This document shows, in pieces, positions 3,080 to 61,170 of a stretch of 64,000 nucleotides of DNA. Made by a program: the position numbers and the translations under genes. Origin of the DNA: Porphyridium purpureum (Eukaryota); contig VRMN01000001.1 in the NCBI GenBank assembly GCA_008690995.1, forward strand, positions 992,001-1,056,000. Direction: 5' to 3'. Positions within the stretch are counted from its first letter, which is position 1, and each line of letters begins with the position of its first letter. The notes below the pieces were generated by a model that was not told the DNA's origin, searched no databases, and saw nothing but the letters and a program-made list of their open reading frames with translations.

Positions 3080-4369
3080 TCAAAGTGCAATGCCGAGAGC
3101 GTCCTGAAAAGCCGCAGCGACTTCTGTGTCTGCAAAGTCATCCGCTTCGCTACCTTTCTGTGCAACTTGCATTGCAGTAAGCCCTGTGTTGTTCCGAATT
3201 TCATGGTCGGCGCCGCTTCTCAGTAAGATCTCGATACACTCTGCGTCGTCCCAACTTCTGCCCCAGACCGCCGCCATGTGAAGCGGCGTATCTCCGTCTG
3301 AGGTTTTGTCGTTCACTCGGGCGCCATTCTCGACCAATATCTGGACAATGTCAAAGCGACCCCAGCGCGCCGCTTCGTGCAACGGTGAGGCGCAGCTGTC
3401 ACCTGCGGTTACATTGACGTCTGCACCAGCTCGCAAGAGCTCTTCCACAACGTCCTCATGCCCACCTCGCGCGGCTCGATGCAACGGTGTGTTGCCCTTG
3501 TCGTCTGGAAGTTGCGCATCAGCACGCGCAGTGAGAAGCTCGCGCACAATGTCGGCAAAGCCCAGGTAAGCGGCGCTCATAAGCGGCGTTTCGCCCTCTG
3601 CGTTGCGCGCGTTCACATGCGACACTGGTAGCATAACTTTGACTACCTCTTTGTTACCGGAATTCACTGCTTCGTGGAGCGGCGTGTTGCCAAACATGTG
3701 GACGGCGAGAGGATCGGCGCCCGCCTGCAACAATGCTTTAGCAGCGGCTGCGTGGCCACCCTTTCCTGCCCAGTGCAACGGTGTCCACCCAAACTTGTTC
3801 CGCGCTTGAATGAGCTCCTTTCTGGCCTCATCCGATCCTGCCCGCTGCAAGAGTAATTCAATCACGTTCGCATGACCCCAATGCGCCGCATGATGCATCG
3901 AGGATGACTCGAACTTGTTCACCGCCCGCACGTCCGCGCCGAAATCCAAGAGGAGCTGCACGTTCTCCTGATGCCCCGCGCGGCAGGCCCACATCAATGC
4001 CGTCCAACCGTCAGCGTTGCTCTCATTCGCGTCGCCTGGACTCTGCTCCAAGGCGGTGCGCAACGTGTCCAAGTCGCCTGCAAACGCTGACACGCTCACC
4101 ACGCCCTGCGGCTCATTCTTTTCCACACCCGCGACCGAAGCCGGCGGAGTGCTGGACGCCAACGACGACTCATCGTCCTCGCCCGTGGCACGCAAACTAT
4201 GCGGATGTGCGTCGGTCCGTCGCGAGCGGCAAGTACGAGGTGCACGCGCTCGCGCGACGACGAGGCCAGTGACCGAGCGCTCAACACCGCAAACACTCGC
4301 GCCTTGCCGACAGCAGCCGTTCTTCGAGAGCGCACAAGATCCCACGAAGGCCATGGCGAACGCAGGCAT
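3080..4369 (-). CDS. Ankyrin-repeat protein with probable plastid transit peptide
   Basis: Many GxT(P/A)LH/M ankyrin repeats. N-terminus is MAFV followed by an S/R/A/C-rich segment. Confidence 0.9.
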   Translation of the reverse strand: MPAFAMAFVGSCALSKNGCCRQGASVCGVERSVTGLVVARARAPRTCRSRRTDAHPHSLRATGEDDESSLASSTPPASVAGVEKNEPQGVVSVSAFAGDLDTLRTALEQSPGDANESNADGWTALMWACRAGHQENVQLLLDFGADVRAVNKFESSSMHHAAHWGHANVIELLLQRAGSDEARKELIQARNKFGWTPLHWAGKGGHAAAAKALLQAGADPLAVHMFGNTPLHEAVNSGNKEVVKVMLPVSHVNARNAEGETPLMSAAYLGFADIVRELLTARADAQLPDDKGNTPLHRAARGGHEDVVEELLRAGADVNVTAGDSCASPLHEAARWGRFDIVQILVENGARVNDKTSDGDTPLHMAAVWGRSWDDAECIEILLRSGADHEIRNNTGLTAMQVAQKGSEADDFADTEVAAAFQDALGIAL

Positions 4370-4602
4370 GAATCAACTGCTTTCCAACCCACACTAGCAC
4401 GCACCGCCAATCGTCTCTGCAGACTCGATCTCCTGCTGCTTCGCATGCGCGCGAACGCACCTCGTCGCCGGCGCCTGTGACAGGCTTTCCGTGGAAGTAC
4501 AGTAATTAGTGTACTTTGTCATCTGCACCAAATTGAGTTGAAGCAGAGCTCCATAAGCAAAGCCTTGAGCGCGGCTTGGAGCGAAAGGAGCCGTGAGGTG
4601 CC

Positions 4603-5530
4603 TTGGTAGATCGATGCCGCGAAGGAAACGAACGGACACGGCACATGCGGCCTTCGTGTCTTAATGAGGAACACCTAGCGCTCGCCAACGACGCCTTCAA
4701 GTACTTGGGTCAGAATAAGGCAGCTTCAGCACTGGAACTCAACGCATGTCTTGGCGCTACCTTCGTTGACTTTCGTGTCAGGCCTGAGCATCTAGGTCTC
4801 GCCGCTAAAGATGACTAGTTGACGCGGAGGCGCAAGAATCATGACGGTTATCCTGAGACGCATTGTCGAAACGCTGTCGACTGCAGCGACGCCCCGACGT
4901 GCTTCTGTGCGGCCACGTCCGGTCGCACCTTCGACAACATCGTCTCCACACACGACACGGTGTTTGCATAGTTCGTGTACTGGCCACAGAACATGTATGG
5001 TCTCGGCAACGAGTGCGTAGAGGTCACTCACGATAAGACGTCTTCACTGAGCACACGGTCGTCGCTGCATCCACCGGTAGCCACTGTCTGGGGTTGGTAG
5101 CCGATGAAGAAGGCGTTCTGAACCAAGAACGCTTCTTCGATCTCATCCAGGCTTTTCTCACCAAAAAGGTGGCTGAAGGGCTGCCTGATACTGTTCGAGA
5201 ATGCAGGAGAACGTGCAGGCGAGGCATTCAGCAATCTCACTGAGAATTTGACAAACAAGATGTGCTTTACTATTCTATGCAGTCCGCACATTAACGTCAT
5301 CCAGAATTGATTCACGCAGTTTAAGCACTGCATTGGTGACTTGCATACCACAAACTGCGAGAAAATCGCAAAAGCCTGCACGGACGTCTTCACTGAGATG
5401 AAGCCCCAGCACGGCTAGAAACACTTGGACAAGGCATATCGCAAGTATGACTACCCACAGACAAAGAAATACCGGGGTCAACAGGGAAGCACCTTCCAAA
5501 GAACAACAAAGTCGGTCCTGCAGAAAGCCC
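4603..5530 (+). pseudogene. Degenerate DD34E IS630/Tc1-type transposase
   Basis: Read across stops and frameshifts: NIVSTHDT (4936; cf. IISxDET), HTVVAAS..EEGVLNQERFFDLI, CLILFENAG (5182; cf. LILDNA), SPHINVIQN*FTQFK (5281; cf. P..N.IE..F.Q.K). Exactly 34 codons lie between the second (5197) and third (5302) catalytic positions. Confidence 0.72.
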
Positions 5531-5599
5531 TTCCCTGTAAGACGCGCGACATGCACATCATGAGGCTGAGGAGCTACCTTTAGGTGCAACACCGAGAGC

Positions 5600-6790
5600 A
5601 GATACGCTCGAAAGTGATCAGAGCCCTGAGTCTGAATAAGGACAGAGCATGACCCGGTTCACGTTGGACGACAATGCGGAAAGACAAGGACGCCTCGAAA
5701 CTGTTTTCGGAGATGCGTACCTTTAGTGGGTATAGAATGTGGGACAATTTGAAGTAACGCGAGCAGAATAAGTGACCGCTGAGGAGTTTGGTCAAGTTCC
5801 CGACACTCAACCACTACATGGCCCTCATCTGCGTTTATCGCATAGTGCGTCAAGAGAAGCGTACAACATGGTCGAAACGGTACGTGTTCATGTGAAATGC
5901 ACTGCAACAAGGGCTAATGTGGGCTCGCAGAACGTGTCTGCACCTCTCAAGTCAAATGTGCCTTCAAACGTTGAAGAAGGCACTTGCTCTTCTCGTCCCG
6001 AAGTATTAGAAGGTCAAGACTGGCCTCAAAACCAATAATCGAAAAAAAATTGTTGTCATCCAGAGGCTACCGGAACGTGCCGAGCATGATCAGGATGCAC
6101 GGCCTGCAGTTCTTGAGAATGCACGTCCTTCACTGTCGTGATGCCGATGCACAGTTCTTTTCTCTTGGGCAAGGAGTTCGTCAAGGAGGGGCTCAAGGCG
6201 TTATATAAGGACGGCACGCCAAGCAGGTCTACCACAGAGAAGACCACGACGACCAAACATGCATTGCGCGAAGTCTACAATCTGCTCAACAAGCCGGACG
6301 CTAGCAAAACGTGTACCACCCACACCAGAGCACAGCGATCGACTGCGTGACCGCCAGTTTGATCAAGATGTGTGAGAACAGCATGAAGGCACACGTCATC
6401 ACGTACATAGAGTGCTTCGATAACGTAACCAGAGGCAAGAAACAAGCGACGTTATAGCAAGTCCAGAGCGGCGGTCAAGGGCAAGCGTCAGTGCATGTTG
6501 TCGCACAAGGCGGGCTACCAGGAATGCATGATTGATGCGTTTTATGCTAGTTGCCTTTGTAGCTGCTGCGAGAAACTCGGAGAGTACAAAATGACCCTAC
6601 ATTGCAGGAACACAAGCCCGCACAGAAGAAAACGCAGCAGAGGTCATGGGCTCGTCCGGCCATTGGCTCGTCCGATTTCCGTGGAAGAGAGACAAGAAAG
6701 CAACCAGCAACATCAGGAAGATTGCTATCAATTCCATCTAGGGCATGGAGCGAACCGAGCCGATCCGAAGAAGAGATCAAGCCAGATACA
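5600..6790 (+). pseudogene. Degenerate Fanzor1 (eukaryotic TnpB-like RuvC nuclease); 5' limit uncertain
   Basis: VKGKRQCMLSHKAGYQECMIDAFYASCLCSCCE..RNTSPHR..HGLVR (6474-6660), then after a frameshift WKRDKKATSNIRKIAINSI*GMER (6682-6753). This matches the Fanzor1 pattern vDEfrTS-CxxC...hgll.C..C..WnRD.NaalNI..g..RP. Confidence 0.72.
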
Positions 6791-7043
6791 CCGTTGGGAG
6801 TAAAGCTCGCTCGAGTGGTCACAAGGCCTTCACCAAGCACTATAAACAGCCACGAGCAAAGTCTAAAGTCGAAGGAGATGAAATGCTTTTGACATTTGAA
6901 ATCCTCAATGTCTAAACGTAGTGTACGCTGCGGGCACCGGGAGTTGAGCAGAATCCTCCCATCCCGCAAATAGAGCGGCAGGATGAAGATTTCATTACGT
7001 TTATGGATTGCTCACCAATCATTAAGCGAAACACGAGTTTTCA

Positions 7044-8252
7044 TCACAGTTCCAAGACAATGCGACCGGCTACTTTTCCCTCCTTCATTTCCGCAAAGAC
7101 ATCGTTGAGGTCATCCAGGTGTTGGGTTCTGTAGATGGGCTTCACCTTACCTTGGGCGCAAAACTCAAGACACTCGGCGAGATCTTGACGCGTGCCAACA
7201 ATACTGCCGCGTACCGTGATACGCTTGAGAACCACGGGGAAAATCGGGATGCTAAAGTTACCGGGAGGCAGTGACACCAGCACAACGCACCCGTAGCGCT
7301 TGGACATCTGCACACAATCGTTAAAGACCTTGTTGCTGGTAGCCAGACAGAGCACACCCTCAGATCCTTTGCCGCCCGTGATCTTCAGCACTTCGTCTAC
7401 TGTGTTAGGCGTCGTGAGAAAGTCCACATAATGCGCGGCACCCAGCTTCTTGCACATGGCGCCCTTCTCCTCACCGCCATCTATGGCAATCACATTCATG
7501 CCCATCGCCTTAGCGTACTGAACGGCCAAGTGCCCAAGACCGCCGCCTGCGCCCACAATGGTTACATATTCGCCAGCCTTCACCTCGGACTCCTTGAGAG
7601 CCTTGTAGGTGGTCACACCGGCACAAAGAATCGGGGCCGCGTCGGCGTACGAGACGCCATCCGGGATGCGCGCCGCGTACTTGGCGTCAGCGATACAGTA
7701 CTCCTGGAAGGAGCCGTCCTTGGAGTATCCGCCGTTCTGCTGCTTCTCACACACGGTCTCATTGCCCTTGATGCAATGCTCACACTCGCCGCAAGCCGAG
7801 TAAAGCCACACAATGCCAACACGGTCACCGATTTTCAGCGACGTCACGCCGTCCCCGACAGCAACAACCTCACCGGCACCTTCGTGTCCGCCCGTCAGCG
7901 GTTTCTTGGGTGGAACTGGCCAATCGCCATCCTTTGCATGGAGGTCTGTGTGGCACACGCCCGTGACATGCACCTTCATGAGGATTTCACCTTTACCTGG
8001 GCTGGGCATCGGCACCTGCTTGAACACGTAGTCTGCGCCATTGCCCTCTGTTACGGCCGCCTTGTAAGTTTCTGGCAACTCCCCGCTCATGCGCACGAGC
8101 CGGCGAGACACGAGGCGAGCGTTGCGGGGGATGCCGAGCGAGCGACATCCCGCACGCGCGCGAACGCCGTGACTCACGACCGCGCCAGACCCGCATTTCC
8201 TGCGTGTCGCGGCTGAATCAAGAGCCTGCGCGCCGCACTGCGCGAACGCCAT
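7044..8252 (-). CDS. adh: Zn-dependent alcohol dehydrogenase (AdhP/yeast ADH type) with probable plastid transit peptide
   Basis: GVCHTDLH, GHEGAG, structural Zn CGECEHC..C, PILCAGVT, GAGGGLG. ATG 8252 starts MAF plus an R/S-rich leader. Confidence 0.93.
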   Translation of the reverse strand: MAFAQCGAQALDSAATRRKCGSGAVVSHGVRARAGCRSLGIPRNARLVSRRLVRMSGELPETYKAAVTEGNGADYVFKQVPMPSPGKGEILMKVHVTGVCHTDLHAKDGDWPVPPKKPLTGGHEGAGEVVAVGDGVTSLKIGDRVGIVWLYSACGECEHCIKGNETVCEKQQNGGYSKDGSFQEYCIADAKYAARIPDGVSYADAAPILCAGVTTYKALKESEVKAGEYVTIVGAGGGLGHLAVQYAKAMGMNVIAIDGGEEKGAMCKKLGAAHYVDFLTTPNTVDEVLKITGGKGSEGVLCLATSNKVFNDCVQMSKRYGCVVLVSLPPGNFSIPIFPVVLKRITVRGSIVGTRQDLAECLEFCAQGKVKPIYRTQHLDDLNDVFAEMKEGKVAGRIVLEL

Positions 8253-31785: not shown

Positions 31786-31924
31786 CCTCCTCCTTCCTCC
31801 CCTTCCCCCGACGTCGCCCACCCCCCGCCATTACTGCCACCACGCCCTGCCTTATCCAACCGTGTACCTTTCATAAACCATCCCACTGTACCCTAGATTC
31901 CCCCACATCACCGCAGACCCTGTA

Positions 31925-33474
31925 CACTCCTGGCCAAGATGGTTGTCCCAGGTGCAATGTCAAGGTCTGAACTCCAGTTTTATAGTAAAAACGAGCGTTT
32001 TCATATGAAATCAATGTTTATACCTTTTTTTAACATATTTTTGTTCCTTAGGTCAGAGGTAAGCGCGCGCTTTTGCGGGACCCCATGAGGCCATGAAGGG
32101 GTTCAAGACATGTGAAAGAAGACTAACGCATCTACTGCACTCGGGCATACGATCGCGACCAAGTCCAGCAACCGCAAGCATCGGAAACATGGCACCACGG
32201 CTCTCCGACTTCGAGAAAGGCCAGATTGACGCTCTGCACCGGCTCTGTCTGACGCCGCGGGCCATTGCAGCACGTCTTCGTCCGCGACCAGACAAGACCC
32301 GACCATCGTACAAGACTGTGGAGCGATTTCTGAAGAATCGAGGAAGGAAAAGGGTTTCCAAGAAGCCCGGACCGGCACGGACAATATCGCCGAAATTGGA
32401 GCGTCGCCTGATTCGGCACGTCATTACGGATAGGTTGACGTCTGCACAGGCAGTGACGGAGCTGCAGCTTGCGTGCAGTGCGAGAACTGTTCGTCGTATC
32501 CTGCAGAGATCACCAGAGGTTCGTATTATCGCGCAGAGGCGAAAGTTCTTCATTTCGGAAAAGAACCGAGTCAAGCGGCTTGCATTTGCTCGAGAATACG
32601 TCCACAAGCCGCTATCGTTTTGGAAGAATGTCATCTTCTCGGATGAAAAGATCTTTCGGCTGGACGGGCCACACGGGTACAACAAGACTTATCAGCGAAC
32701 GCGAGGCCCTGAGCCCGCGCCAACCATGCGTCGCCATAGTGGCGGAGGATCCGCAATGTTTTGGGGTGCCATGTCGTGGCACGGACTGAGTACGTTGCAT
32801 CGTGTTCAAGGCTCGCTGAATGCCGAGCGATATCGGCAGGTTATGCTGAACGTCATGATGCCCTGGGCACTGGAACTGCCTTGGCGCCTTGATCAGCCGG
32901 ATTGTCCATTCATATTTCAGCAAGATAATGCGCCCGGACATGCAGCGCTGAGCACGCGCGAGCTGTTTGACACGGTCGGAATCGCACTACTTGATTGGCC
33001 AGCGCGGTCGCCGGACTTGAATCCAGTTGAGAATCTGTGGGCGATCGTTTCTCGCCGTGTGCATTGGCAAGGACGCCAGTTTATGCGCCTCGATGACATG
33101 CTTCCAGTTATCTATGGCTGCTGGCGAACGGAAGCGCCAAAGTATGTTGAGGCACTTTTCGAGAGCATGCCCCGTCGCCTGCAAGCTTGCATCGACGCCG
33201 GTGGCCGTCAAACCAAGTACTAGTTTCGTTACTACAGTTAAATCTCTTCTCATAAGCGTGTTTGTCCTCATCAACCTGTTTTATTGTTTTTCTCTTTTTC
33301 GGCACTTCTCACACCTGTTGTTTTGTTCTACGATACCTTTGGACGCCCCTACCCATTTTCCGTGCCGCTGATTCTTTTCGTGCCATCAAAACAGACGACA
33401 ACCTAGTCGAAAAGCCGAGTTATTCACAAAAAACTTCATTTAATCCTGTGGGACAACTAACTTGGCCAGGACTG
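31925..33474 (+). mobile_element. Intact Tc1/mariner-superfamily transposon (1550 bp)
   Basis: 26-bp TIRs at 31925-31950 (CACTCCTGGCCAAGATGGTTGTCCCA) and 33449-33474, with 3 mismatches. TA flanks at 31923-31924 and 33475-33476. Confidence 0.95.
32189..33223 (+). CDS. Tc1-type DD34E transposase
   Basis: N-terminal HTH region, FSDEK, QQDNAPGH and WPARSPDLNPVENLW. 34 residues lie between the second D and E; there are no disruptions. Confidence 0.95.
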   Translation: MAPRLSDFEKGQIDALHRLCLTPRAIAARLRPRPDKTRPSYKTVERFLKNRGRKRVSKKPGPARTISPKLERRLIRHVITDRLTSAQAVTELQLACSARTVRRILQRSPEVRIIAQRRKFFISEKNRVKRLAFAREYVHKPLSFWKNVIFSDEKIFRLDGPHGYNKTYQRTRGPEPAPTMRRHSGGGSAMFWGAMSWHGLSTLHRVQGSLNAERYRQVMLNVMMPWALELPWRLDQPDCPFIFQQDNAPGHAALSTRELFDTVGIALLDWPARSPDLNPVENLWAIVSRRVHWQGRQFMRLDDMLPVIYGCWRTEAPKYVEALFESMPRRLQACIDAGGRQTKY

Positions 33475-33806
33475 TACCCTCTCCCTTTCTCCCTTTCTCC
33501 CTTCCTGCGTGGCTATCAATATTCTGCCCGTTTGGTATAGACCATGTAGGAACCCTAGGCGGTGCGGTGTGTTGCGACCGATTCGATACTGCGCGCTGGC
33601 GGTGTGCTATGCAAGGGCACACACACGCGCGTAGAAGCGTGTGTGGGTGTGTGATGAAGTGGATACTGAAACGTGCATGTTTTAGTAGAACGGTCGCGCG
33701 CCTAGACAAATGGCGAAGAGGCGGGGTAGGGGGGCCATACACTGCGGATAGAAGCACACCGAAGGAACAGGTTGGCGCGTGGGTGTGTGTGCAGTGTGAG
33801 CGGCGG

Positions 33807-54182: not shown

Positions 54183-54572
54183 CGCAGCGTGCCGCACGAC
54201 GAGGTTCCTCTCCTACCTCCCTTTTCCCAGCTGTCTCTGCACTTACTCCCGTCTCCTCACCAAACTTTTTCCCTGCACATACCCCTCCCCCCCTCACGCC
54301 AATTCCCTTCTATCATCAAATGACCCATTCTTCGTACAAAGTACACGTTTCTCTTCTTCCTTCGGGTCCCCGCCGGGAAGCCCATCCGACGGCGCGGGTT
54401 AGATCGAGGGTTGCACATTTCCGCCTTCGCTCCGCGCCAAACCCTCAATCTAACTAACCCTATTCATTCAGGGAAAAAAAAACAAAAACAACTGACCCCA
54501 CGAACCGAAAGCCGAACCGACTGTACCTCCTCATCCCCAAACACCCCTTTGATTTTTGTTGTCCTTCTTCCT

Positions 54573-55369
54573 CTTGGAATTTCTCCCTTTCTGCTTTGTA
54601 ACCGAATCAACAAAACCGGACCGCTTCACCGATAACAGGAACTGGAAACCGCCACACCCCGGAAACTGACAAACCGACGACGAACCGACACACCGAAACG
54701 AACGGAAGGACAAGCAGGACAATCAGAGAAAAGTGGCTAGAAAGGAAGAGAGGACAGAAAATTCAACTTATAGGGGACTACGAGAGGGAGTGGACCGGTC
54801 TTGACAAGTGAAGGGTGATGGAAGGTACGTTTAAACCCCAGCTGCCTTTTTAAAAACACTCCAGACCGATATCCGCTCGCACAACACGCTAGCGTGCCTC
54901 TCCCGCAAATCCAACCCAAGTCTTCCAACGACTGCCTCAATCCAACTAACCAATTCTCTTTTTATTCTATTTGCCCTTACCTCTTCTTCTACCTTGACCT
55001 GGAAATTCCTGGGAACCAGCTTGCCCCTTCGTCCTTTTATACCCTTCGTCCTTGCTCTTTCCAGCAAGGACGGGAGAACAAATTTCTCCAACAGGACGAA
55101 TTTCCACCACAGGTTTTGATTCGTTCCACAACTCGCAACCACAGCCGGCCACGTATCCGGAAAATGGCCGGGAGGGCGCGTCAAGAACGAATCCAGAAGC
55201 TTCGGCCGGCCTTTGACCTTTGCACAAGGCCACACAAAACGACAATGACAAACATTTCGCAGGTCCGAGATCATCACGCTTCTCGAACAATCTTTCATCA
55301 TAGAACTTTCTAGGGTTTTGTACTCAAAACCCTACGGCGTCTCTCGGGGCGGAACCCTAAAATTCCACG
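54573..55369 (-). repeat. 3' LTR
   Basis: Direct repeat of 59537-60333; no differences seen by eye and the ORF-track translations of both copies are identical. 8-bp inverted repeat TGGAATTT/AAATTCCA inset 2 nt from each end. Confidence 0.95.
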
Positions 55370-58300
55370 CTCCTCCTTCCGGTCTGAGGGACGCGTAACT
55401 TCTCCCAGCACTTAATGTGGCCCTCCGGAAATAAGGCCTTGGTCATTAAGTCCGCCACATTTTCGTCCGTCTTCACAAATGCCAGTTTCACAAGTTTCTG
55501 CTTTTCGCACACCTGATGCAACCAGGCCAAATCTGTTGCTCGGGTTATCGCCATATGATGCAACTTTGGCGAGTACCCCATCTCTATTGCTCGCATCACA
55601 GCTTGATTGTCACACATCAAAATCACCGAGAACTCTCCGTCACGTATACTTCGCAAGAAAGACAATGCAGGAAACAACGAGAGTTGCACAGTTTCCTCTA
55701 GGGCGGCCAGCTCCGACTCTGAAGTCGACGAGCTCACGAAACGCTGCTTTCTTGAAGACCAATCCACTAGGTACTTGTAATCTCCAGCAACTAAGTACGT
55801 TGCTCTTCCAGAAGTCGACACACGACTCTCTGGACAACCAGCAAAGTCAGCATCCGTGTATCCAAGAATGTTCACCATTCTGATGCCTTCCTTGAGATTC
55901 CCCAACACGTGATACTCCAATGCTTCCCGAGGTGTTTTCAAATACTGCACGACTCGTACGAGCAGCCTTTCTGCTGCCACATTCCACTTGTCAACGTACC
56001 GGGCAATCATACCGACTGCATACGCAATATCAGGTCGAACCGTTCTGGCGAGCCACATCAGCCTCCCGACGTGTTCTCTTACTTTCAAAGTCTTCCAGAT
56101 GACTTGATAATTCAGAACTTCCTCGCCATCTAGCTTCTCAGATGGTGACTTCACGGCACGCAATACGCGTCTAATATCCTGCTCAAATTCCCGAATGACC
56201 ACATCTTGATACTCTTGATTCGCCAAACTCACGCTCCCATTTTTGAGGGAAATGCTCGTCCCCAGGAATCTCAAGGATCCTCCTTCCGTCAATAGTTCTG
56301 GTGCTTTTTCTATGAGAAACTCTTGTTTCAATTCTTCGATGATTCCTGGGCGTTCCTCCTCTCGACAGGCTAATAGACCATCATCCACGTACAGAGCCAA
56401 CAACGCAACTGACGAACTTGCAGCATTTCTCCGGACGTACACATTCTTTTCACCATGCACGAGCTTCCACTGGAACTTTTGCAATCTCCTCCGAGCATCT
56501 TGTGAGAAATCCGAGCCGCTCCTGGGCAAGCCATACAGCGCCTTTCTCAGCCTGACTACTGTGTCTTTTGAATCACAAATTTCACGCGGTAAGTATGCAA
56601 ACGTAGGTGGCCCAGACAGGTCCGCATGGAGGTATGCCGAGCTGATGTCGAAACTAACAATCTGAAGGCCCAGAATTGCAGCCACAGCTATTATCATTCG
56701 GATAGCTGACAAACCAGCAGGCGTCTCATAATCAAAAATGTCATTCGTCGCAGCTCCATCGGACCCCCATATCCTGTTTCCCCCGGCCACCAAGCGGCAC
56801 TTCACCTTGCGAAATTCTTCCGGCATCTCAGCAAATTTCAGACCGAAAATGAAATGTGTGCGTACGAAACGAGCACCAGGTTGCCTCCGGGCCTCCTCCA
56901 GCGTCAAGGGACTCTCATCCCATACCCCAAATTTCAGCATGGATTTGACTTCTTTTTCCATCGCGGCTCGTCCTTGCTCAGACGCCAACGCCGCTCCAGT
57001 TTTCAGCAAAGTCGTTAAGTTCAACTGTGGGATCGTCACTGGACCACCCGTGCCTGCTGCCCGTTCTTCGTCAACCACTCTCACTTTCAATGCCTCGATC
57101 TCTTTCTCAAGCTCCGCTTCTCTAGCTCTGAGAGCATCGATACGACGATCCAAGTCCTGCACCGCTTCAACCGCGGATGGTTCGTCCACTTCTGGCAACT
57201 CTTCCTGCTGGCTCAGGCTCACCATCTCTCGTTCAATTCCCTTTAAAGGGAACTCATGGGTAAATGCCTTAAAATCCTGAGTGCGAATTACTTTTGGGGT
57301 CTCACTCGTCCAGTCATCCCGAGGAAGCACCAAAATTGCCATCGGATGCTCTCCAACGCCGACGAGAATGCCAACTTTTCCTCGCGGTGCATACTTATTG
57401 TCAGGCTGATCATCTTTGTAGACCACCTTGCACCCGAATGGCAAACTAAGATTTCTCGGCGACCATTTTTCACCATGTCGTAATTCAAACGGCGTCTTTC
57501 CAGACTTCCTGCCCACGTGAAGTCTATTCGTCATGAACGCGAAATGCTGCGCGGCGTGCATGAACCAACGCTTCCCGAGTCCGGCCTGCACAAGATTCGC
57601 ACGGATTCCCTGATTCAGCGTGTGGTGAAACCGCTCCTGTTCAGCATGACTGTTTGGCCTGTACGGAATCCCCACCTCGTGCTTTATGAGGTGTTCACGC
57701 ACCAGTCTCCCCACATCTCCCTTGAACTCATTCCCATCATCCGTTCGCAAAACCTTCGGCCATCCTCTCCCGGCTTGCACACTTTTCCAAGCGTCCGCAA
57801 CCGCCGTGTGGGTTTTCGCACGTAGCCCCGCCAATGTCACCCATCCTGTGGCTCTGTCGATATGCGTCAAAATAAACTTTGAACCATCTACCGACTTCAC
57901 ATTTCGCCCAGGCTCCACCAAGTCAATTCCGACTTCATCATTGAATGACAATGCACTGACATCTTTCTCCAGCCTTCGGGCCGGGCGTCGCTTTATCTTC
58001 GCCACGACACACGTCTCACAGTCTCTTTGCATAGGCATGTGAGTCAACTCGTGTTCCGAAGCAGCCACGCTCTGATTTTTCCCGTCAAGCTCGGGAACCA
58101 CTTCTTCAACATTTTCCAACGTGCATATTTCCTTCCCCTCGGGCCTCGTTTCCATCAGTCCCTTCTGCCAATCAATCTTAGGATTCACCATCTTGAGCCA
58201 TTTCCACCCTAAGATGGCATCCATACGAATGGGACCGATATAAAACTCGACGTTCCCTATCCAGAAACCGAGGTCCACCGCAAGCACAATGGGGCCGTGC

Positions 58301-58521
58301 ACCTTCATTCTCTGTCCTCCCGCAAGCTCGACCATGCATTCATCGCAACTGGACTTTACGCTTGCGTCCAAGAATCGGGACCCCAGGAAATTATGCGACG
58401 CTCCACTGTCAATCAAGAAGTCGATTTTTGAACCACTCACTTTCCCATGTTTGTAGAAGAGCCTTGACCTCGCACCCTCGTGCGCAACACCTTCCACAAC
58501 ACCCATTACAGGAGGCTCCAT
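55357..58521 (-). CDS. pol: Pol polyprotein: protease-integrase-RT-RNase H (probably expressed as Gag-Pol by -1 frameshift)
   Basis: PR LIDSGASHNF; INT HELTH..CETC, VGIDLV, RTDDGNEF, QERF; RT KCRLVAGG, DISSAYL, LRKALYGL, LYVDD; RNase H YTDADFAG, ESEL, CDNQ, NVADLMTK. Confidence 0.95.
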   Translation of the reverse strand: MEPPVMGVVEGVAHEGARSRLFYKHGKVSGSKIDFLIDSGASHNFLGSRFLDASVKSSCDECMVELAGGQRMKVHGPIVLAVDLGFWIGNVEFYIGPIRMDAILGWKWLKMVNPKIDWQKGLMETRPEGKEICTLENVEEVVPELDGKNQSVAASEHELTHMPMQRDCETCVVAKIKRRPARRLEKDVSALSFNDEVGIDLVEPGRNVKSVDGSKFILTHIDRATGWVTLAGLRAKTHTAVADAWKSVQAGRGWPKVLRTDDGNEFKGDVGRLVREHLIKHEVGIPYRPNSHAEQERFHHTLNQGIRANLVQAGLGKRWFMHAAQHFAFMTNRLHVGRKSGKTPFELRHGEKWSPRNLSLPFGCKVVYKDDQPDNKYAPRGKVGILVGVGEHPMAILVLPRDDWTSETPKVIRTQDFKAFTHEFPLKGIEREMVSLSQQEELPEVDEPSAVEAVQDLDRRIDALRAREAELEKEIEALKVRVVDEERAAGTGGPVTIPQLNLTTLLKTGAALASEQGRAAMEKEVKSMLKFGVWDESPLTLEEARRQPGARFVRTHFIFGLKFAEMPEEFRKVKCRLVAGGNRIWGSDGAATNDIFDYETPAGLSAIRMIIAVAAILGLQIVSFDISSAYLHADLSGPPTFAYLPREICDSKDTVVRLRKALYGLPRSGSDFSQDARRRLQKFQWKLVHGEKNVYVRRNAASSSVALLALYVDDGLLACREEERPGIIEELKQEFLIEKAPELLTEGGSLRFLGTSISLKNGSVSLANQEYQDVVIREFEQDIRRVLRAVKSPSEKLDGEEVLNYQVIWKTLKVREHVGRLMWLARTVRPDIAYAVGMIARYVDKWNVAAERLLVRVVQYLKTPREALEYHVLGNLKEGIRMVNILGYTDADFAGCPESRVSTSGRATYLVAGDYKYLVDWSSRKQRFVSSSTSESELAALEETVQLSLFPALSFLRSIRDGEFSVILMCDNQAVMRAIEMGYSPKLHHMAITRATDLAWLHQVCEKQKLVKLAFVKTDENVADLMTKALFPEGHIKCWEKLRVPQTGRRSVEF
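55370..55380 (-). other. Polypurine tract
   Basis: Minus-strand GGAAGGAGGAG directly abuts the 3' LTR. Confidence 0.85.
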
Positions 58522-58569
58522 TCCCCTCGAGATCTCCTCCTGTCTTGGCTCTCGAGGTCTTAGTTTTCC
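58508..58569 (-). promoter_or_regulatory. Putative -1 programmed ribosomal frameshift signal (slippery site + H-type pseudoknot)
   Basis: G_GAA_AAC immediately before the gag stop, a 5-nt spacer, and two perfect 8-bp stems. The pol frame is -1 and open from the slip site. Confidence 0.8.
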
Positions 58570-59507
58570 GGCTCTGGCGGACCACCTGCCAAGCGCTCCT
58601 TCAATTTAGGGCATTTGGGCTTAATGTGTCCACGTTCTCCACAATGGTAACACTTCACTTTGGTCTTGCCAGACTTCCGCTTGTCCATGGCTCCCAAATC
58701 CATTGGTGCGCTACCAGAATGCGACGAGAACGCCCTGCTATGAGTCGATGACGAGTTCTTGATCACTTGACTCATATCTCCTCCGAACTTTGCAACCTGC
58801 TCAGCTGCCAACGCAACTTTCAGTGATTCTTCCAAGGTCCTTGTGTCCTGACGGGCCACCTCAATACGCAGTTTCTCCTTCAAGCCCAGCGTGAAGATGG
58901 TGTTCAGTTCTGCATCTGTCACATCTTCAACTGATAACGCTGTCATCCTGAGATTCTGCTCAAATTCTGCGACCGTCATTTTCCCTTGCTTCAACTGATA
59001 CAGATTGGTGCGCGCTGTCAAATGCGCCTGCGGCGGCTCAAACGCTGTGCGCACGAAGTTTGCGAACGCATCCCATCCGGCCTCTGCAAGGCCCTTTCTC
59101 TGCTCCTCCGGACGAGCTGCCCAAAGCAGCGCTGCGTCCCTCTCGAAAAAGCGACTTGCAACAATCACTTTCTGCGAGTCCAAAGCATCTGCGGGCATGC
59201 AGATATCCAGGTCGCTCTTCATTCGCATCAGCCATTCATTGACAACGAGCTTGTCACGCTGACCATCAAACTTTCTCAAACTGCGCCCAATTAACGCGGC
59301 CATGGCACGATCGTTGTCACCAGACCCAGACGCCACGGTCTGCTGGCGCAACAAAACATGCATCATTTCATGGAGGTTACGATTCGCTTCCTGCACTTGT
59401 GCCATCATCATCTCCTGTCCCGCAATGCGCGCATGCAGCTGATTAGCTGCCTCAATCCATGCCGCATTCTCCTGCGGGACATTCATTTCCATTTCATGGC
59501 TTTCCAT
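58560..59507 (-). CDS. gag: Gag (capsid + CCHC nucleocapsid)
   Basis: KFDG..EWL..W..F..F, LKQG.MTVAEF, FTLGLK, APMDLG, CYHCGERGHIKPKC. First ATG is 59507. Confidence 0.93.
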   Translation of the reverse strand: MESHEMEMNVPQENAAWIEAANQLHARIAGQEMMMAQVQEANRNLHEMMHVLLRQQTVASGSGDNDRAMAALIGRSLRKFDGQRDKLVVNEWLMRMKSDLDICMPADALDSQKVIVASRFFERDAALLWAARPEEQRKGLAEAGWDAFANFVRTAFEPPQAHLTARTNLYQLKQGKMTVAEFEQNLRMTALSVEDVTDAELNTIFTLGLKEKLRIEVARQDTRTLEESLKVALAAEQVAKFGGDMSQVIKNSSSTHSRAFSSHSGSAPMDLGAMDKRKSGKTKVKCYHCGERGHIKPKCPKLKERLAGGPPEPEN

Positions 59508-59518
59508 TTTCTCCAAAC

Positions 59519-59536
59519 AACCGGGCGATGATACCA
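59519..59536 (-). other. Primer-binding site, probably for initiator tRNA-Met
   Basis: TGGTATCATCGCCCGGTT abuts the 5' LTR and resembles the TGGTATCAGAGC-type iMet PBS. Confidence 0.85.
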
Positions 59537-60333
59537 CTTGGAATTTCTCCCTTTCTGCTTTGTAACCGAATCAACAAAACCGGACCGCTTCACCGATAAC
59601 AGGAACTGGAAACCGCCACACCCCGGAAACTGACAAACCGACGACGAACCGACACACCGAAACGAACGGAAGGACAAGCAGGACAATCAGAGAAAAGTGG
59701 CTAGAAAGGAAGAGAGGACAGAAAATTCAACTTATAGGGGACTACGAGAGGGAGTGGACCGGTCTTGACAAGTGAAGGGTGATGGAAGGTACGTTTAAAC
59801 CCCAGCTGCCTTTTTAAAAACACTCCAGACCGATATCCGCTCGCACAACACGCTAGCGTGCCTCTCCCGCAAATCCAACCCAAGTCTTCCAACGACTGCC
59901 TCAATCCAACTAACCAATTCTCTTTTTATTCTATTTGCCCTTACCTCTTCTTCTACCTTGACCTGGAAATTCCTGGGAACCAGCTTGCCCCTTCGTCCTT
60001 TTATACCCTTCGTCCTTGCTCTTTCCAGCAAGGACGGGAGAACAAATTTCTCCAACAGGACGAATTTCCACCACAGGTTTTGATTCGTTCCACAACTCGC
60101 AACCACAGCCGGCCACGTATCCGGAAAATGGCCGGGAGGGCGCGTCAAGAACGAATCCAGAAGCTTCGGCCGGCCTTTGACCTTTGCACAAGGCCACACA
60201 AAACGACAATGACAAACATTTCGCAGGTCCGAGATCATCACGCTTCTCGAACAATCTTTCATCATAGAACTTTCTAGGGTTTTGTACTCAAAACCCTACG
60301 GCGTCTCTCGGGGCGGAACCCTAAAATTCCACG
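59537..60333 (-). repeat. 5' LTR
   Basis: Direct repeat of 54573-55369; contains a minus-strand TATAAAA at about 59999-60005. Confidence 0.95.
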
Positions 60334-61170
60334 TTCCTCCTCCCCTTTGCGACTTCCCTCCTATCGTTGTACTTGCATGCTATAGAAACAGTGTTATTTA
60401 TCGATACATGCTGGCCGAACTTGCGAACATGGTCATACCTAGTAAACCGGTGGAGTTGTATTATCACGACTTACTCTTCGAGGCCCCTTTTCGTAGTGTT
60501 TCAATTACGCAAGCTAGCCCGCTTATAGTGTTTTTTTGGTTTGAGGGGAGCGACGTTTTACTGGAGTGCCGCATTTTCTTTCTGTGTTTTGTTCTTAGGG
60601 TATTGCCCTTCCTATTAAAACAGGTTGTTCAGATATGGAAAAGATGAAGGGGAAAAAATGGTAAACAAGGTGAATGCAAGTAGAAGAAAAATAAGAGAGG
60701 AAGAGCGGGGAGGGGGCGGGGAAAAGAGAGGGGAGTGGGGAGGGGGAAGGGAAGGTGAAGGGTGCACAACGTGAAGAGGAAGGGTGAGTACGTGCTGTTT
60801 GGTTAAAGTGTGTGGCGTGTGGGTTGCGCGTGGTACGAGCAAATGGACAGAGCATGCGAGTGAGTTTGTGTAAGGGGAGGGCGGCAGCTGGGAAACTCAG
60901 GGACTAGTGAAACGAAGAAACCGGGAGGGAAGGGGCGTGCACGGTTTCGGGCGTCGACGTTTCGACGAAGGAAGGGCGGCGTTTCGTGAGAGGGGCGTTG
61001 TCCACTTTGGGCGTGGGTACGAGGTCTTGACGGCGTTGGCACGGAGCAAAAGATACGTGCGCGTTTCGTTGAACGTGTTGGTCGTGCGTTGTGCTGTTCG
61101 CCTCCCTTAACGTCCATGCGTTTTCGGACGCGCGTGGGTCGTGGAGGCGCGCGGTGAGGTTTCGAGCATC

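What the first reader, a model, noticed from the sequence alone, without database searches (positions are those of the whole stretch)
5600..6790. Hidden Fanzor1 (RNA-guided TnpB-like nuclease) pseudogene
Seen: fragments KGKRQCMLSHKAGY-IDAFYAS-CLCSCC-RNTSPHR-HGLVR and, one frameshift later, WKRDKKATSNIRKIAINSI*GMER. Established: Fanzor C-termini carry the relocated RuvC Glu in a DE..TS motif, a CxxC...CxxC zinc ribbon and the RuvC-III WNRDxNAxxNI motif. Here the Glu is Ala, the second CxxC is replaced by a small duplication (GGCTCGTCCG twice, ~6649-6674), and stops are present. Inference: a dead copy of a Fanzor family in this alga; intact copies elsewhere in the genome would be new programmable-nuclease candidates.
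Basis: partly seen in the sequence, partly recalled or inferred. Interest (0 to 1): 0.8.

Follow-up and report, generated by a model that had tools for sequence, protein, structure and literature searches.

The report
Dead giant-virus-type Fanzor transposon, red alga
This is a broken jumping gene in a red alga that holds the remains of a transposase, a small unknown gene and a Fanzor nuclease missing its middle, in the order seen in giant-virus transposons; it is likely an inert fossil, and no intact copy turned up.

Summary
The Fanzor1 remnant is real, but it is one part of a larger dead transposon (about 4606-6914) lying between ankyrin and alcohol-dehydrogenase genes of a Porphyridium-type red alga. 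The order is IS630/Tc1-mariner transposase pseudogene (4606-5511), a ~115-codon ORF2 pseudogene (5560-5892), Fanzor1 pseudogene (~5960-6780), then a right inverted repeat plus TA (6887-6914). The same order occurs in giant-virus contigs (49 of 79 transposase loci carry both ORF2 and Fanzor). The Fanzor has lost ~360 codons including RuvC-I; its catalytic Glu is Ala and its second zinc pair is gone. All three transposase catalytic residues are changed and no left repeat remains. Contigs of independent runs keep the lesions. Eight runs showed no copy at 80% identity or more; the genome itself could not be searched. Third codon positions are 66% GC (viral median 16%), suggesting the ancestor coded in a GC-rich genome. 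Mariner-Fanzor1 elements have been known since 2013, and this scan met them before in Cyanidioschyzon and giant viruses. ORF2 has no Pfam family and travels with Fanzor; its role is open.

The parts
4606..5511 (+). IS630/Tc1-mariner (DD34E-type) transposase pseudogene; first ~40 codons not recognisable; 2 frameshifts (~5040, ~5170), 4 stops (4816, 4969, 5308, 5416); the three catalytic positions read His, Glu, Gln
   Evidence: phmmer hits down to E 5.6e-15; 13 of those 16 hits carry Pfam DDE_3; profile positions 41-338 of 342, 127.8 bits, frameshift-aware
5560..5892 (+). ORF2 pseudogene: ~115-aa conserved small protein of unknown function; at least 3 stops (5581, 5755, 5773)
   Evidence: 53% identity over 66 aa to P0009; profile positions 1-111 of 114, 41.1 bits; family of 918 clusters, the 120 listed without Pfam
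5959..6442 (+). Fanzor1 N-terminal part (profile positions ~1-165); 5959-6088 weakly supported; stop at 6007, frameshifts ~6089, ~6165, ~6305
6443..6447 (+). Junction of an internal deletion of profile positions 166-526 (~361 codons, ~1.08 kb), removing the RuvC-I DPG motif
   Evidence: contigs of runs X1, X2, X12 and X14, X15, X17 cross it with no gap listed there
6447..6780 (+). Fanzor1 C-terminal part: Glu-to-Ala at 6537-6539, first CxxC 6558-6569, second CxxC lost, RD at 6688-6693, frameshift ~6670, stop 6739
   Evidence: 30.3 bits, iE 1.2e-9; hhalign E 1.5e-6, probability 90%
6642..6673 (+). 16-nt tandem duplication at the site of the lost second zinc pair
   Evidence: family D9
6776..6886 (+). 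Decayed region in the place of the guide-RNA (omegaRNA) scaffold
   Evidence: RD-to-end distance 233 nt against 195-286 in 32 viral ends; keeps 5 of 12 base pairs predicted for the viral ends
6887..6914 (+). Right terminal inverted repeat remnant (6887-6912) followed by TA (6913-6914)
   Evidence: best match in the window to a matrix of 74 viral repeats: 23.7 bits with one base missing; next unrelated site 14.6; aligns with the viral ends

Best explanation
This is a decayed copy of a three-gene mariner-type transposon (transposase, small ORF2, Fanzor1) whose three genes are all broken and whose Fanzor has lost its middle, so it is likely inert. Inferred from relatives and the literature: the intact ancestor would have moved by cut-and-paste into TA sites through its DDE transposase and ~30-nt inverted repeats. 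Its Fanzor, loaded with an RNA read from the right end into the flank, would have cut empty donor sites and so helped the element persist. ORF2 is predicted to be a small DNA-binding accessory or regulator (weak evidence). The lineage is shared with giant viruses and likely reached the alga by horizontal transfer, donor and direction unproven. The GC-rich third codon positions suggest the ancestor kept coding in a GC-rich genome, probably the algal lineage itself, before this copy died.
For: Shown: transposase homology. Colinear tblastx matches of all three genes to single giant-virus loci. The order transposase-ORF2-[cargo]-Fanzor in 49 of 79 transposase loci. The matched viral ORF of L004 hits the solved Fanzor1 structures 8GKH (E 4e-43), 9CF0 and 9CER, and 31 of 33 such ORFs carry PF07282. 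Inverted repeats of 27-36 nt bound 22 of 24 hand-picked viral elements, and the window's best match to them lies where the right end is expected. Lesions and deletion are mapped and crossed without gaps by contigs of independent runs. GC at codon positions 1/2/3 is 0.48/0.41/0.66 over 615 codons (Fisher p 6e-18); 10 host genes have GC3 0.56-0.80; 223 viral ORFs have median 0.16, maximum 0.57. In a quick tree the transposase joins a 6-row clade (SH-aLRT 100) with giant-virus L081 and an Amoeboradix transcript protein. Established: Mariner-Fanzor1 elements and TA duplications (PMC3627910); Fanzor as an RNA-guided nuclease (PMC10432273, PMC10530073); restorative homing shown for TnpB and proposed for Fanzor (PMC13565253).
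Against: No left repeat or left TA was found, so transposition into this site rests on one end. Identity to the best relatives is only 25-41%. The tree is the quick one, unrooted, with a long, compositionally odd branch for this copy, so it names no donor. GC-rich giant viruses exist (L136 is 47% GC), so GC3 does not prove activity in the alga. Only one copy was seen. Contig ends near 4420-4620 in 6 of 8 runs could mean the relic is transcribed.
Confidence: 0.82

Rival explanations
1. The stretch arrived dead, as a piece of giant-virus DNA pasted into the alga's chromosome, and the element never transposed or coded in the algal lineage.
For: All loci with the three-gene order came from giant-virus or AT-rich metagenome contigs. 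ORF2 look-alikes are nucleocytoviral. One copy only, no left end. Fanzor-mariner elements ride in an integrated giant virus of Chlamydomonas (10.1101/2024.09.03.611062, passages).
Against: Homology stops at the right repeat plus TA, and the neighbours are an ankyrin gene and a host ADH. GC3 0.66 exceeds all 223 viral ORFs measured, and neutral decay of AT-rich DNA would not make the third position the richest. The collections searched for context hold no eukaryotic nuclear genomes, which biases the first point.
Confidence: 0.1
2. The relic has been kept as a non-coding RNA locus: a transcript from the ankyrin gene's divergent promoter, or a guide-RNA-only ('ghost') locus serving an intact Fanzor elsewhere in the genome.
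For: The right end is full length and partly alignable (51 of 93 positions match the viral majority). Contigs of two RNA runs of one study cover about 4620-6380. Ghost loci exist in Spizellomyces (PMC10432273, passages).
Against: Only 5 of 12 predicted scaffold pairs survive. Those RNA runs barely cover the scaffold region (none in X19, depth ~5 in X20). Contigs show neither strand nor level, and a SNP-dense stretch at 4418-4644 can explain the breaks. No intact Fanzor partner was found. Rfam gave only chance-level matches.
Confidence: 0.06
3. The motifs are chance, or the broken frames are assembly errors or contamination.
For: No hit in Pfam, NCBIfam or PDB with single frames; none in the word-indexed searches or in plasmids.
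Against: Profile score far above 200 shuffles; three genes and an end in the viral order; 20 runs of 8 studies hold half or more of the stretch's words; run X12 spans element and both flanking genes in one contig with no gap.
Confidence: 0.01

Closest known systems
[quoted passage not shown]
   Same: Mariner transposase plus Fanzor1 between ~29-nt inverted repeats with TA duplications and a middle gene; the published ends begin CACC like the viral repeats found here.
   Different: This copy is nuclear, GC-rich, fully broken and lacks a recognisable left end. Its middle gene is the ~115-aa ORF2, not the 291-aa GIY-YIG nuclease of PGv-1. In the first bases of the published PGv-1 record the transposase appears to run toward the 5' repeat (read by eye), whereas here all genes point to the right end.
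Fanzor1 nucleases SpuFz1 (PDB 8GKH), PpFz1 (9CF0), GtFz1 (9CER)
   Same: The intact viral relative P0049 aligns over nearly its whole length with SpuFz1 (E 4e-43); the window keeps the first zinc pair and RuvC-III RD.
   Different: The window copy lacks RuvC-I and ~360 residues, has Ala for the catalytic Glu and no second zinc pair; it cannot encode the nuclease.
CMe-1A Fanzor1 family of the red alga Cyanidioschyzon merolae (PMC3627910)
   Same: Old Fanzor1 element in a red-algal nuclear genome.
   Different: CMe-1A has ~150 copies, some intact, and no reported repeats or transposase. Here one copy with a viral-type right repeat and ORF2 was seen. CMe-1 was read in supplements only and not aligned.
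Fanzor families A-C of the Chlamydomonas endogenous giant virus (Punuivirus; 10.1101/2024.09.03.611062)
   Same: IS630-Tc1-mariner transposase plus Fanzor1, with degraded derivatives and a fragment in a host chromosome.
   Different: Those are young (>99% identical) and lie in an active provirus; no small accessory ORF is mentioned in the passages read.

Membership tests
Fanzor1 (functional nuclease) | RuvC-I DPG motif (PMC10711439) | tested here: not met
   Lies in the deleted part; present in 27 of 33 intact relatives
Fanzor1 (functional nuclease) | Relocated RuvC-II Glu six residues before the zinc finger | tested here: not met
   Position aligned, residue is Ala; Glu with this spacing in 31 of 33 relatives
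Fanzor1 (functional nuclease) | C4 zinc finger followed by RD | tested here: not met
   First CxxC and RD kept, second CxxC lost
Fanzor1 (descent) | Sequence homology to Fanzor1 rather than Fanzor2/TnpB | tested here: met
   Profile match at both ends; relative P0049 hits only three Fanzor1 structures at E<=1
Fanzor1 (functional nuclease) | Structured omegaRNA at the right end | tested here: inconclusive
   Region present at the expected length, 5 of 12 predicted pairs kept; alignment uncertain
Fanzor1 (functional nuclease) | RNA-guided DNA cleavage | not testable with these tools
   No protein can be made from this copy; relatives were not assayed
IS630/Tc1/mariner, PGv-1-like (descent) | DDE_3-type transposase homology with DD34E spacing | tested here: met
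   invariant D238 and E273 in alignment A1 give 34 residues between
IS630/Tc1/mariner (active element) | Intact D-D-E triad | tested here: not met
   His, Glu, Gln at the three positions
IS630/Tc1/mariner (active element) | Paired terminal inverted repeats and TA duplication | tested here: not met
   Right repeat plus TA found; no left repeat (best local score below 0 bits; shuffle p 0.78)
Winged-helix-like DNA-binding proteins (ORF2 of intact relatives) | Fold match to a solved DNA-binding domain | tested here: inconclusive
   Model pLDDT 92.7; Foldseek PDB none at E<=0.001; VIA best Z 5.0, rmsd 3.2, 78 aligned, to an IRF-type DNA-binding domain, within background

The most novel reading that the evidence does not exclude
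Giant-virus mariner-Fanzor transposons are three-part systems in which the unnamed ~115-aa ORF2 protein is a dedicated Fanzor co-factor or regulator (41 loci with both, 2 with ORF2 only, 3 with Fanzor only, 16 with neither), and one such system colonised and spread in a red-algal nuclear genome under host-like codon use, where an intact GC-rich copy may survive in this or a sister species.
Probability: 0.2. Interest if true: 0.6.

Novelty: new member of a known kind. Interest (0 to 1): 0.27.

Why it matters
As it stands it is a fossil and gives no new nuclease. It adds a second red-algal lineage to the range of Fanzor1: I found no real Porphyridium Fanzor in the supplements of three 2023 surveys. 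It also preserves the giant-virus gene order in a nuclear genome, which supports traffic of these elements between viruses and algae. The by-product of most value is ORF2, a large unnamed family tightly linked to Fanzor in these elements. If it controls Fanzor or its RNA, it would matter for how these nucleases are regulated and used.

Tried and rejected
Pfam on 30 stop-free pieces and on three read-through frames, NCBIfam and PDB sequence search gave no Fanzor, TnpB or transposase hit. Word-indexed protein searches with the Fanzor frame and ORF2 frame, the viral pattern scan and the plasmid tblastn were empty. Self-blastn of the window showed no second copy. I first read 5450-6050 by eye as Fanzor in frame with the transposase (a possible fusion, note); two searches showed it is ORF2 and the fusion idea was dropped. 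Left repeat: not found. Rfam: three chance-level matches. The sigma-70 scan does not apply to a eukaryote and found nothing. Transcription: contigs stop near 4340-4430 and restart at 4580-4690 in X1, X2, X14, X17, X19, X20 while X12 and X15 run through; the two runs on record as RNA are one study and leave 6390-6745 uncovered. A SNP-dense stretch explains the breaks equally well, so this is not used as evidence. ORF2 function: Pfam best E 0.0017 in 6 of 40 members (DUF5737), PDB profile none below E 0.5, Atlas best 0.83, a lead only. No ORF2-Fanzor complex model was obtained, so binding is untested. The careful tree did not finish. Scans for closer viral relatives added L136 and L139 but no closer Fanzor. 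The two Porphyridium rows labelled Fanzor in Table S5 of PMC10711439 look to me like a TFIIH p44 subunit and a Pex2 RING protein caught by a pattern (recalled labels, not tested).

Full report
Setting. The flagged stretch lies in a 2.7-kb gap between an ankyrin-repeat gene (3080-4369, minus) and an alcohol dehydrogenase gene (7044-8252, minus). The gap is ~50% GC and A-rich on the plus strand, against ~55% for the window. The ADH falls in a 90%-identity cluster whose representative is a Porphyridium purpureum protein, so the host is that red alga or a close relative.

Observation. The quoted peptides are in the sequence, and the 16-nt duplication is at 6642-6673. Stock libraries saw nothing. 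An unindexed phmmer search with one read-through frame (4501-6915) against 1.84 billion representatives gave 16 hits at E<=0.001. Fifteen matched 4600-5480, and 13 of the 16 carry Pfam DDE_3. One, P0009, matched 5700-5900 at 53%.

Relatives in context. A transposase alignment fetched the best 80 of 311 loci from viral contigs; searches added 12. tblastx showed colinear matches of the transposase, a middle region and the flagged region to single loci. With profiles built from these loci, 79 of the 80 had a plus-strand transposase ORF (L079 dropped); 52 had ORF2, 53 had Fanzor and 49 had both. Among 62 loci with at least 4.5 kb held downstream, 41 had both, 2 ORF2 only, 3 Fanzor only and 16 neither. 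These loci are related and partly redundant, so the nominal p value is not a test. Variable cargo genes often lie between ORF2 and Fanzor. The same order recurs in many of 42 metagenome loci fetched with P0009. The large ORF is Fanzor1: L004's protein hits SpuFz1 at E 4e-43 and two other Fanzor1 structures, and 31 of 33 carry PF07282. Inverted repeats of 27-36 nt bound 22 of 24 hand-picked elements; the other two loci are cut short.

Anatomy of this copy. Over the whole window the three profiles hit only this locus. The Fanzor score is 33.3 bits against at most -0.2 in 200 shuffles; the profile's members were chosen with this region, which inflates it somewhat. Frameshift-aware alignments give the following. 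Transposase 4606-5511: 127.8 bits, 2 frameshifts, 4 stops, catalytic positions His/Glu/Gln. ORF2 5560-5892: 41.1 bits, at least 3 stops. Fanzor 6089-6780: 93.9 bits, weakly extendable to 5959, with profile positions 166-526 deleted at ~6443. The deletion removes RuvC-I. The relocated Glu is Ala, the second zinc pair is lost and RD is kept. A matrix from 74 viral repeats finds its best window site at 6887-6914 (23.7 bits against 14.6 elsewhere), at the expected distance from RD. No left repeat is left. The guide-RNA region keeps 5 of 12 pairs predicted for the viral ends.

Real and single. Twenty runs of 8 studies hold at least half of the stretch's words. Of 8 runs laid at 80% likeness, contigs from six cross the deletion junction without a gap, and X12 spans both flanking genes. 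The only indel listed is one base at 6042. No diverged copy of the element was laid, whereas an ADH paralogue was. Contigs drop rare variants and some records are filtered, so older copies are not excluded.

History. In the reconstructed frames GC is 0.48/0.41/0.66 at codon positions 1/2/3 (615 codons, p 6e-18). Ten host genes have GC3 0.56-0.80, eight spacers 0.42-0.57 GC, and 223 viral ORFs median 0.16, maximum 0.57. Neutral decay of an AT-rich viral insert would not produce this, so the ancestor likely coded in a GC-rich genome. That may be the algal lineage, or a GC-rich virus such as those behind L081 and L136. A quick tree of 61 rows places the transposase with L081, P0004 (an Amoeboradix transcript protein), P0005, P0013 and P0048 (SH-aLRT 100), far from the window's other Tc1 element, but on a long branch and without a root.

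Mechanism. Shown: three broken genes, the deletion, one end. Inferred from the family: cut-and-paste into TA, and RNA-guided cutting of empty sites by Fanzor with a guide read from the right flank. Predicted and weak: ORF2 as a DNA-binding accessory. Its model is confident (pLDDT 92.7; helices then a two-strand hairpin). It matches uncharacterised giant-virus proteins and, more weakly, parts of viral helicase and origin-binding proteins. It has no clear solved relative. The family has 918 clusters at E<=0.001, and the 120 listed have no Pfam domain.

Literature. PMC3627910: parts 1-4 of 7 of the text, supplement file 1 whole, passages of two sequence files; it describes Mariner-Fanzor1 elements including PGv-1, and CMe-1A in a red alga. 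PMC10711439, PMC10530073, PMC10432273: passages and supplement searches. Porphyridium appeared only in two pattern-matched rows of PMC10711439; one scanned PDF of PMC10432273 could not be searched. PMC13565253 and bioRxiv 10.1101/2024.09.03.611062: passages only (preprint supplements closed). Seven searches (listings only unless named above) gave no paper on a Porphyridium Fanzor or on ORF2. Subscription journals and Repbase were not searched. Earlier notes of this scan describe mariner-plus-gutted-Fanzor relics in Cyanidioschyzon and a giant-virus element with a small accessory ORF; none covers this genome.

Verdict. A correct catch of a dead Fanzor1, better described as the relic of a giant-virus-type transposase-ORF2-Fanzor transposon. 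It descends from both families but fails their functional membership tests. New member of a known kind; interest 0.27.

Noticed in passing
window 31922-33477: Apparently intact Tc1-type element: 376-aa ORF (32093-33223; DDE_3 and HTH_Tnp_Tc3_2) between 29-nt inverted repeats, 90% complementary; only 20% identical to the Fanzor-linked transposases.
   Followed up: partly
window 54570-60344: Young LTR retrotransposon: 811-nt LTRs 99.6% identical, gag 58560-59507 and pol 55357-58521 on the minus strand in separate ORFs; copia-type RVT_2 with a gag that also matches Ty3_capsid.
   Followed up: partly
window 4418-4644: SNP-dense stretch between the ankyrin start and the relic (7 differences in X12, 12 in X15); contigs of 6 of 8 runs break here, which could be a divergent promoter or haplotype splitting.
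   Followed up: partly
L001-L092, between ORF2 and Fanzor: Giant-virus elements carry highly variable cargo ORFs of 120-1280 aa in either orientation at this one slot; cargo was not annotated.
   Followed up: no
P0009, P0024: Two 70-aa ORF2 fragments from short NCBI contigs (540 and 885 bases) are 53-54% identical to this copy, far closer than viral ORF2 (~30%); their origin is unknown and may mark a closer nuclear relative.
   Followed up: partly
L136:5001-7372: ORF2 directly followed by an apparently complete 662-aa Fanzor1 in a 47%-GC giant-virus contig, with no transposase hit in the locus.
   Followed up: no
PMC10711439 Table S5: Two Porphyridium proteins labelled Fanzor (KAA8495554.1, KAA8499273.1) look like unrelated zinc-finger proteins caught by a pattern (my reading, untested).
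   Followed up: no
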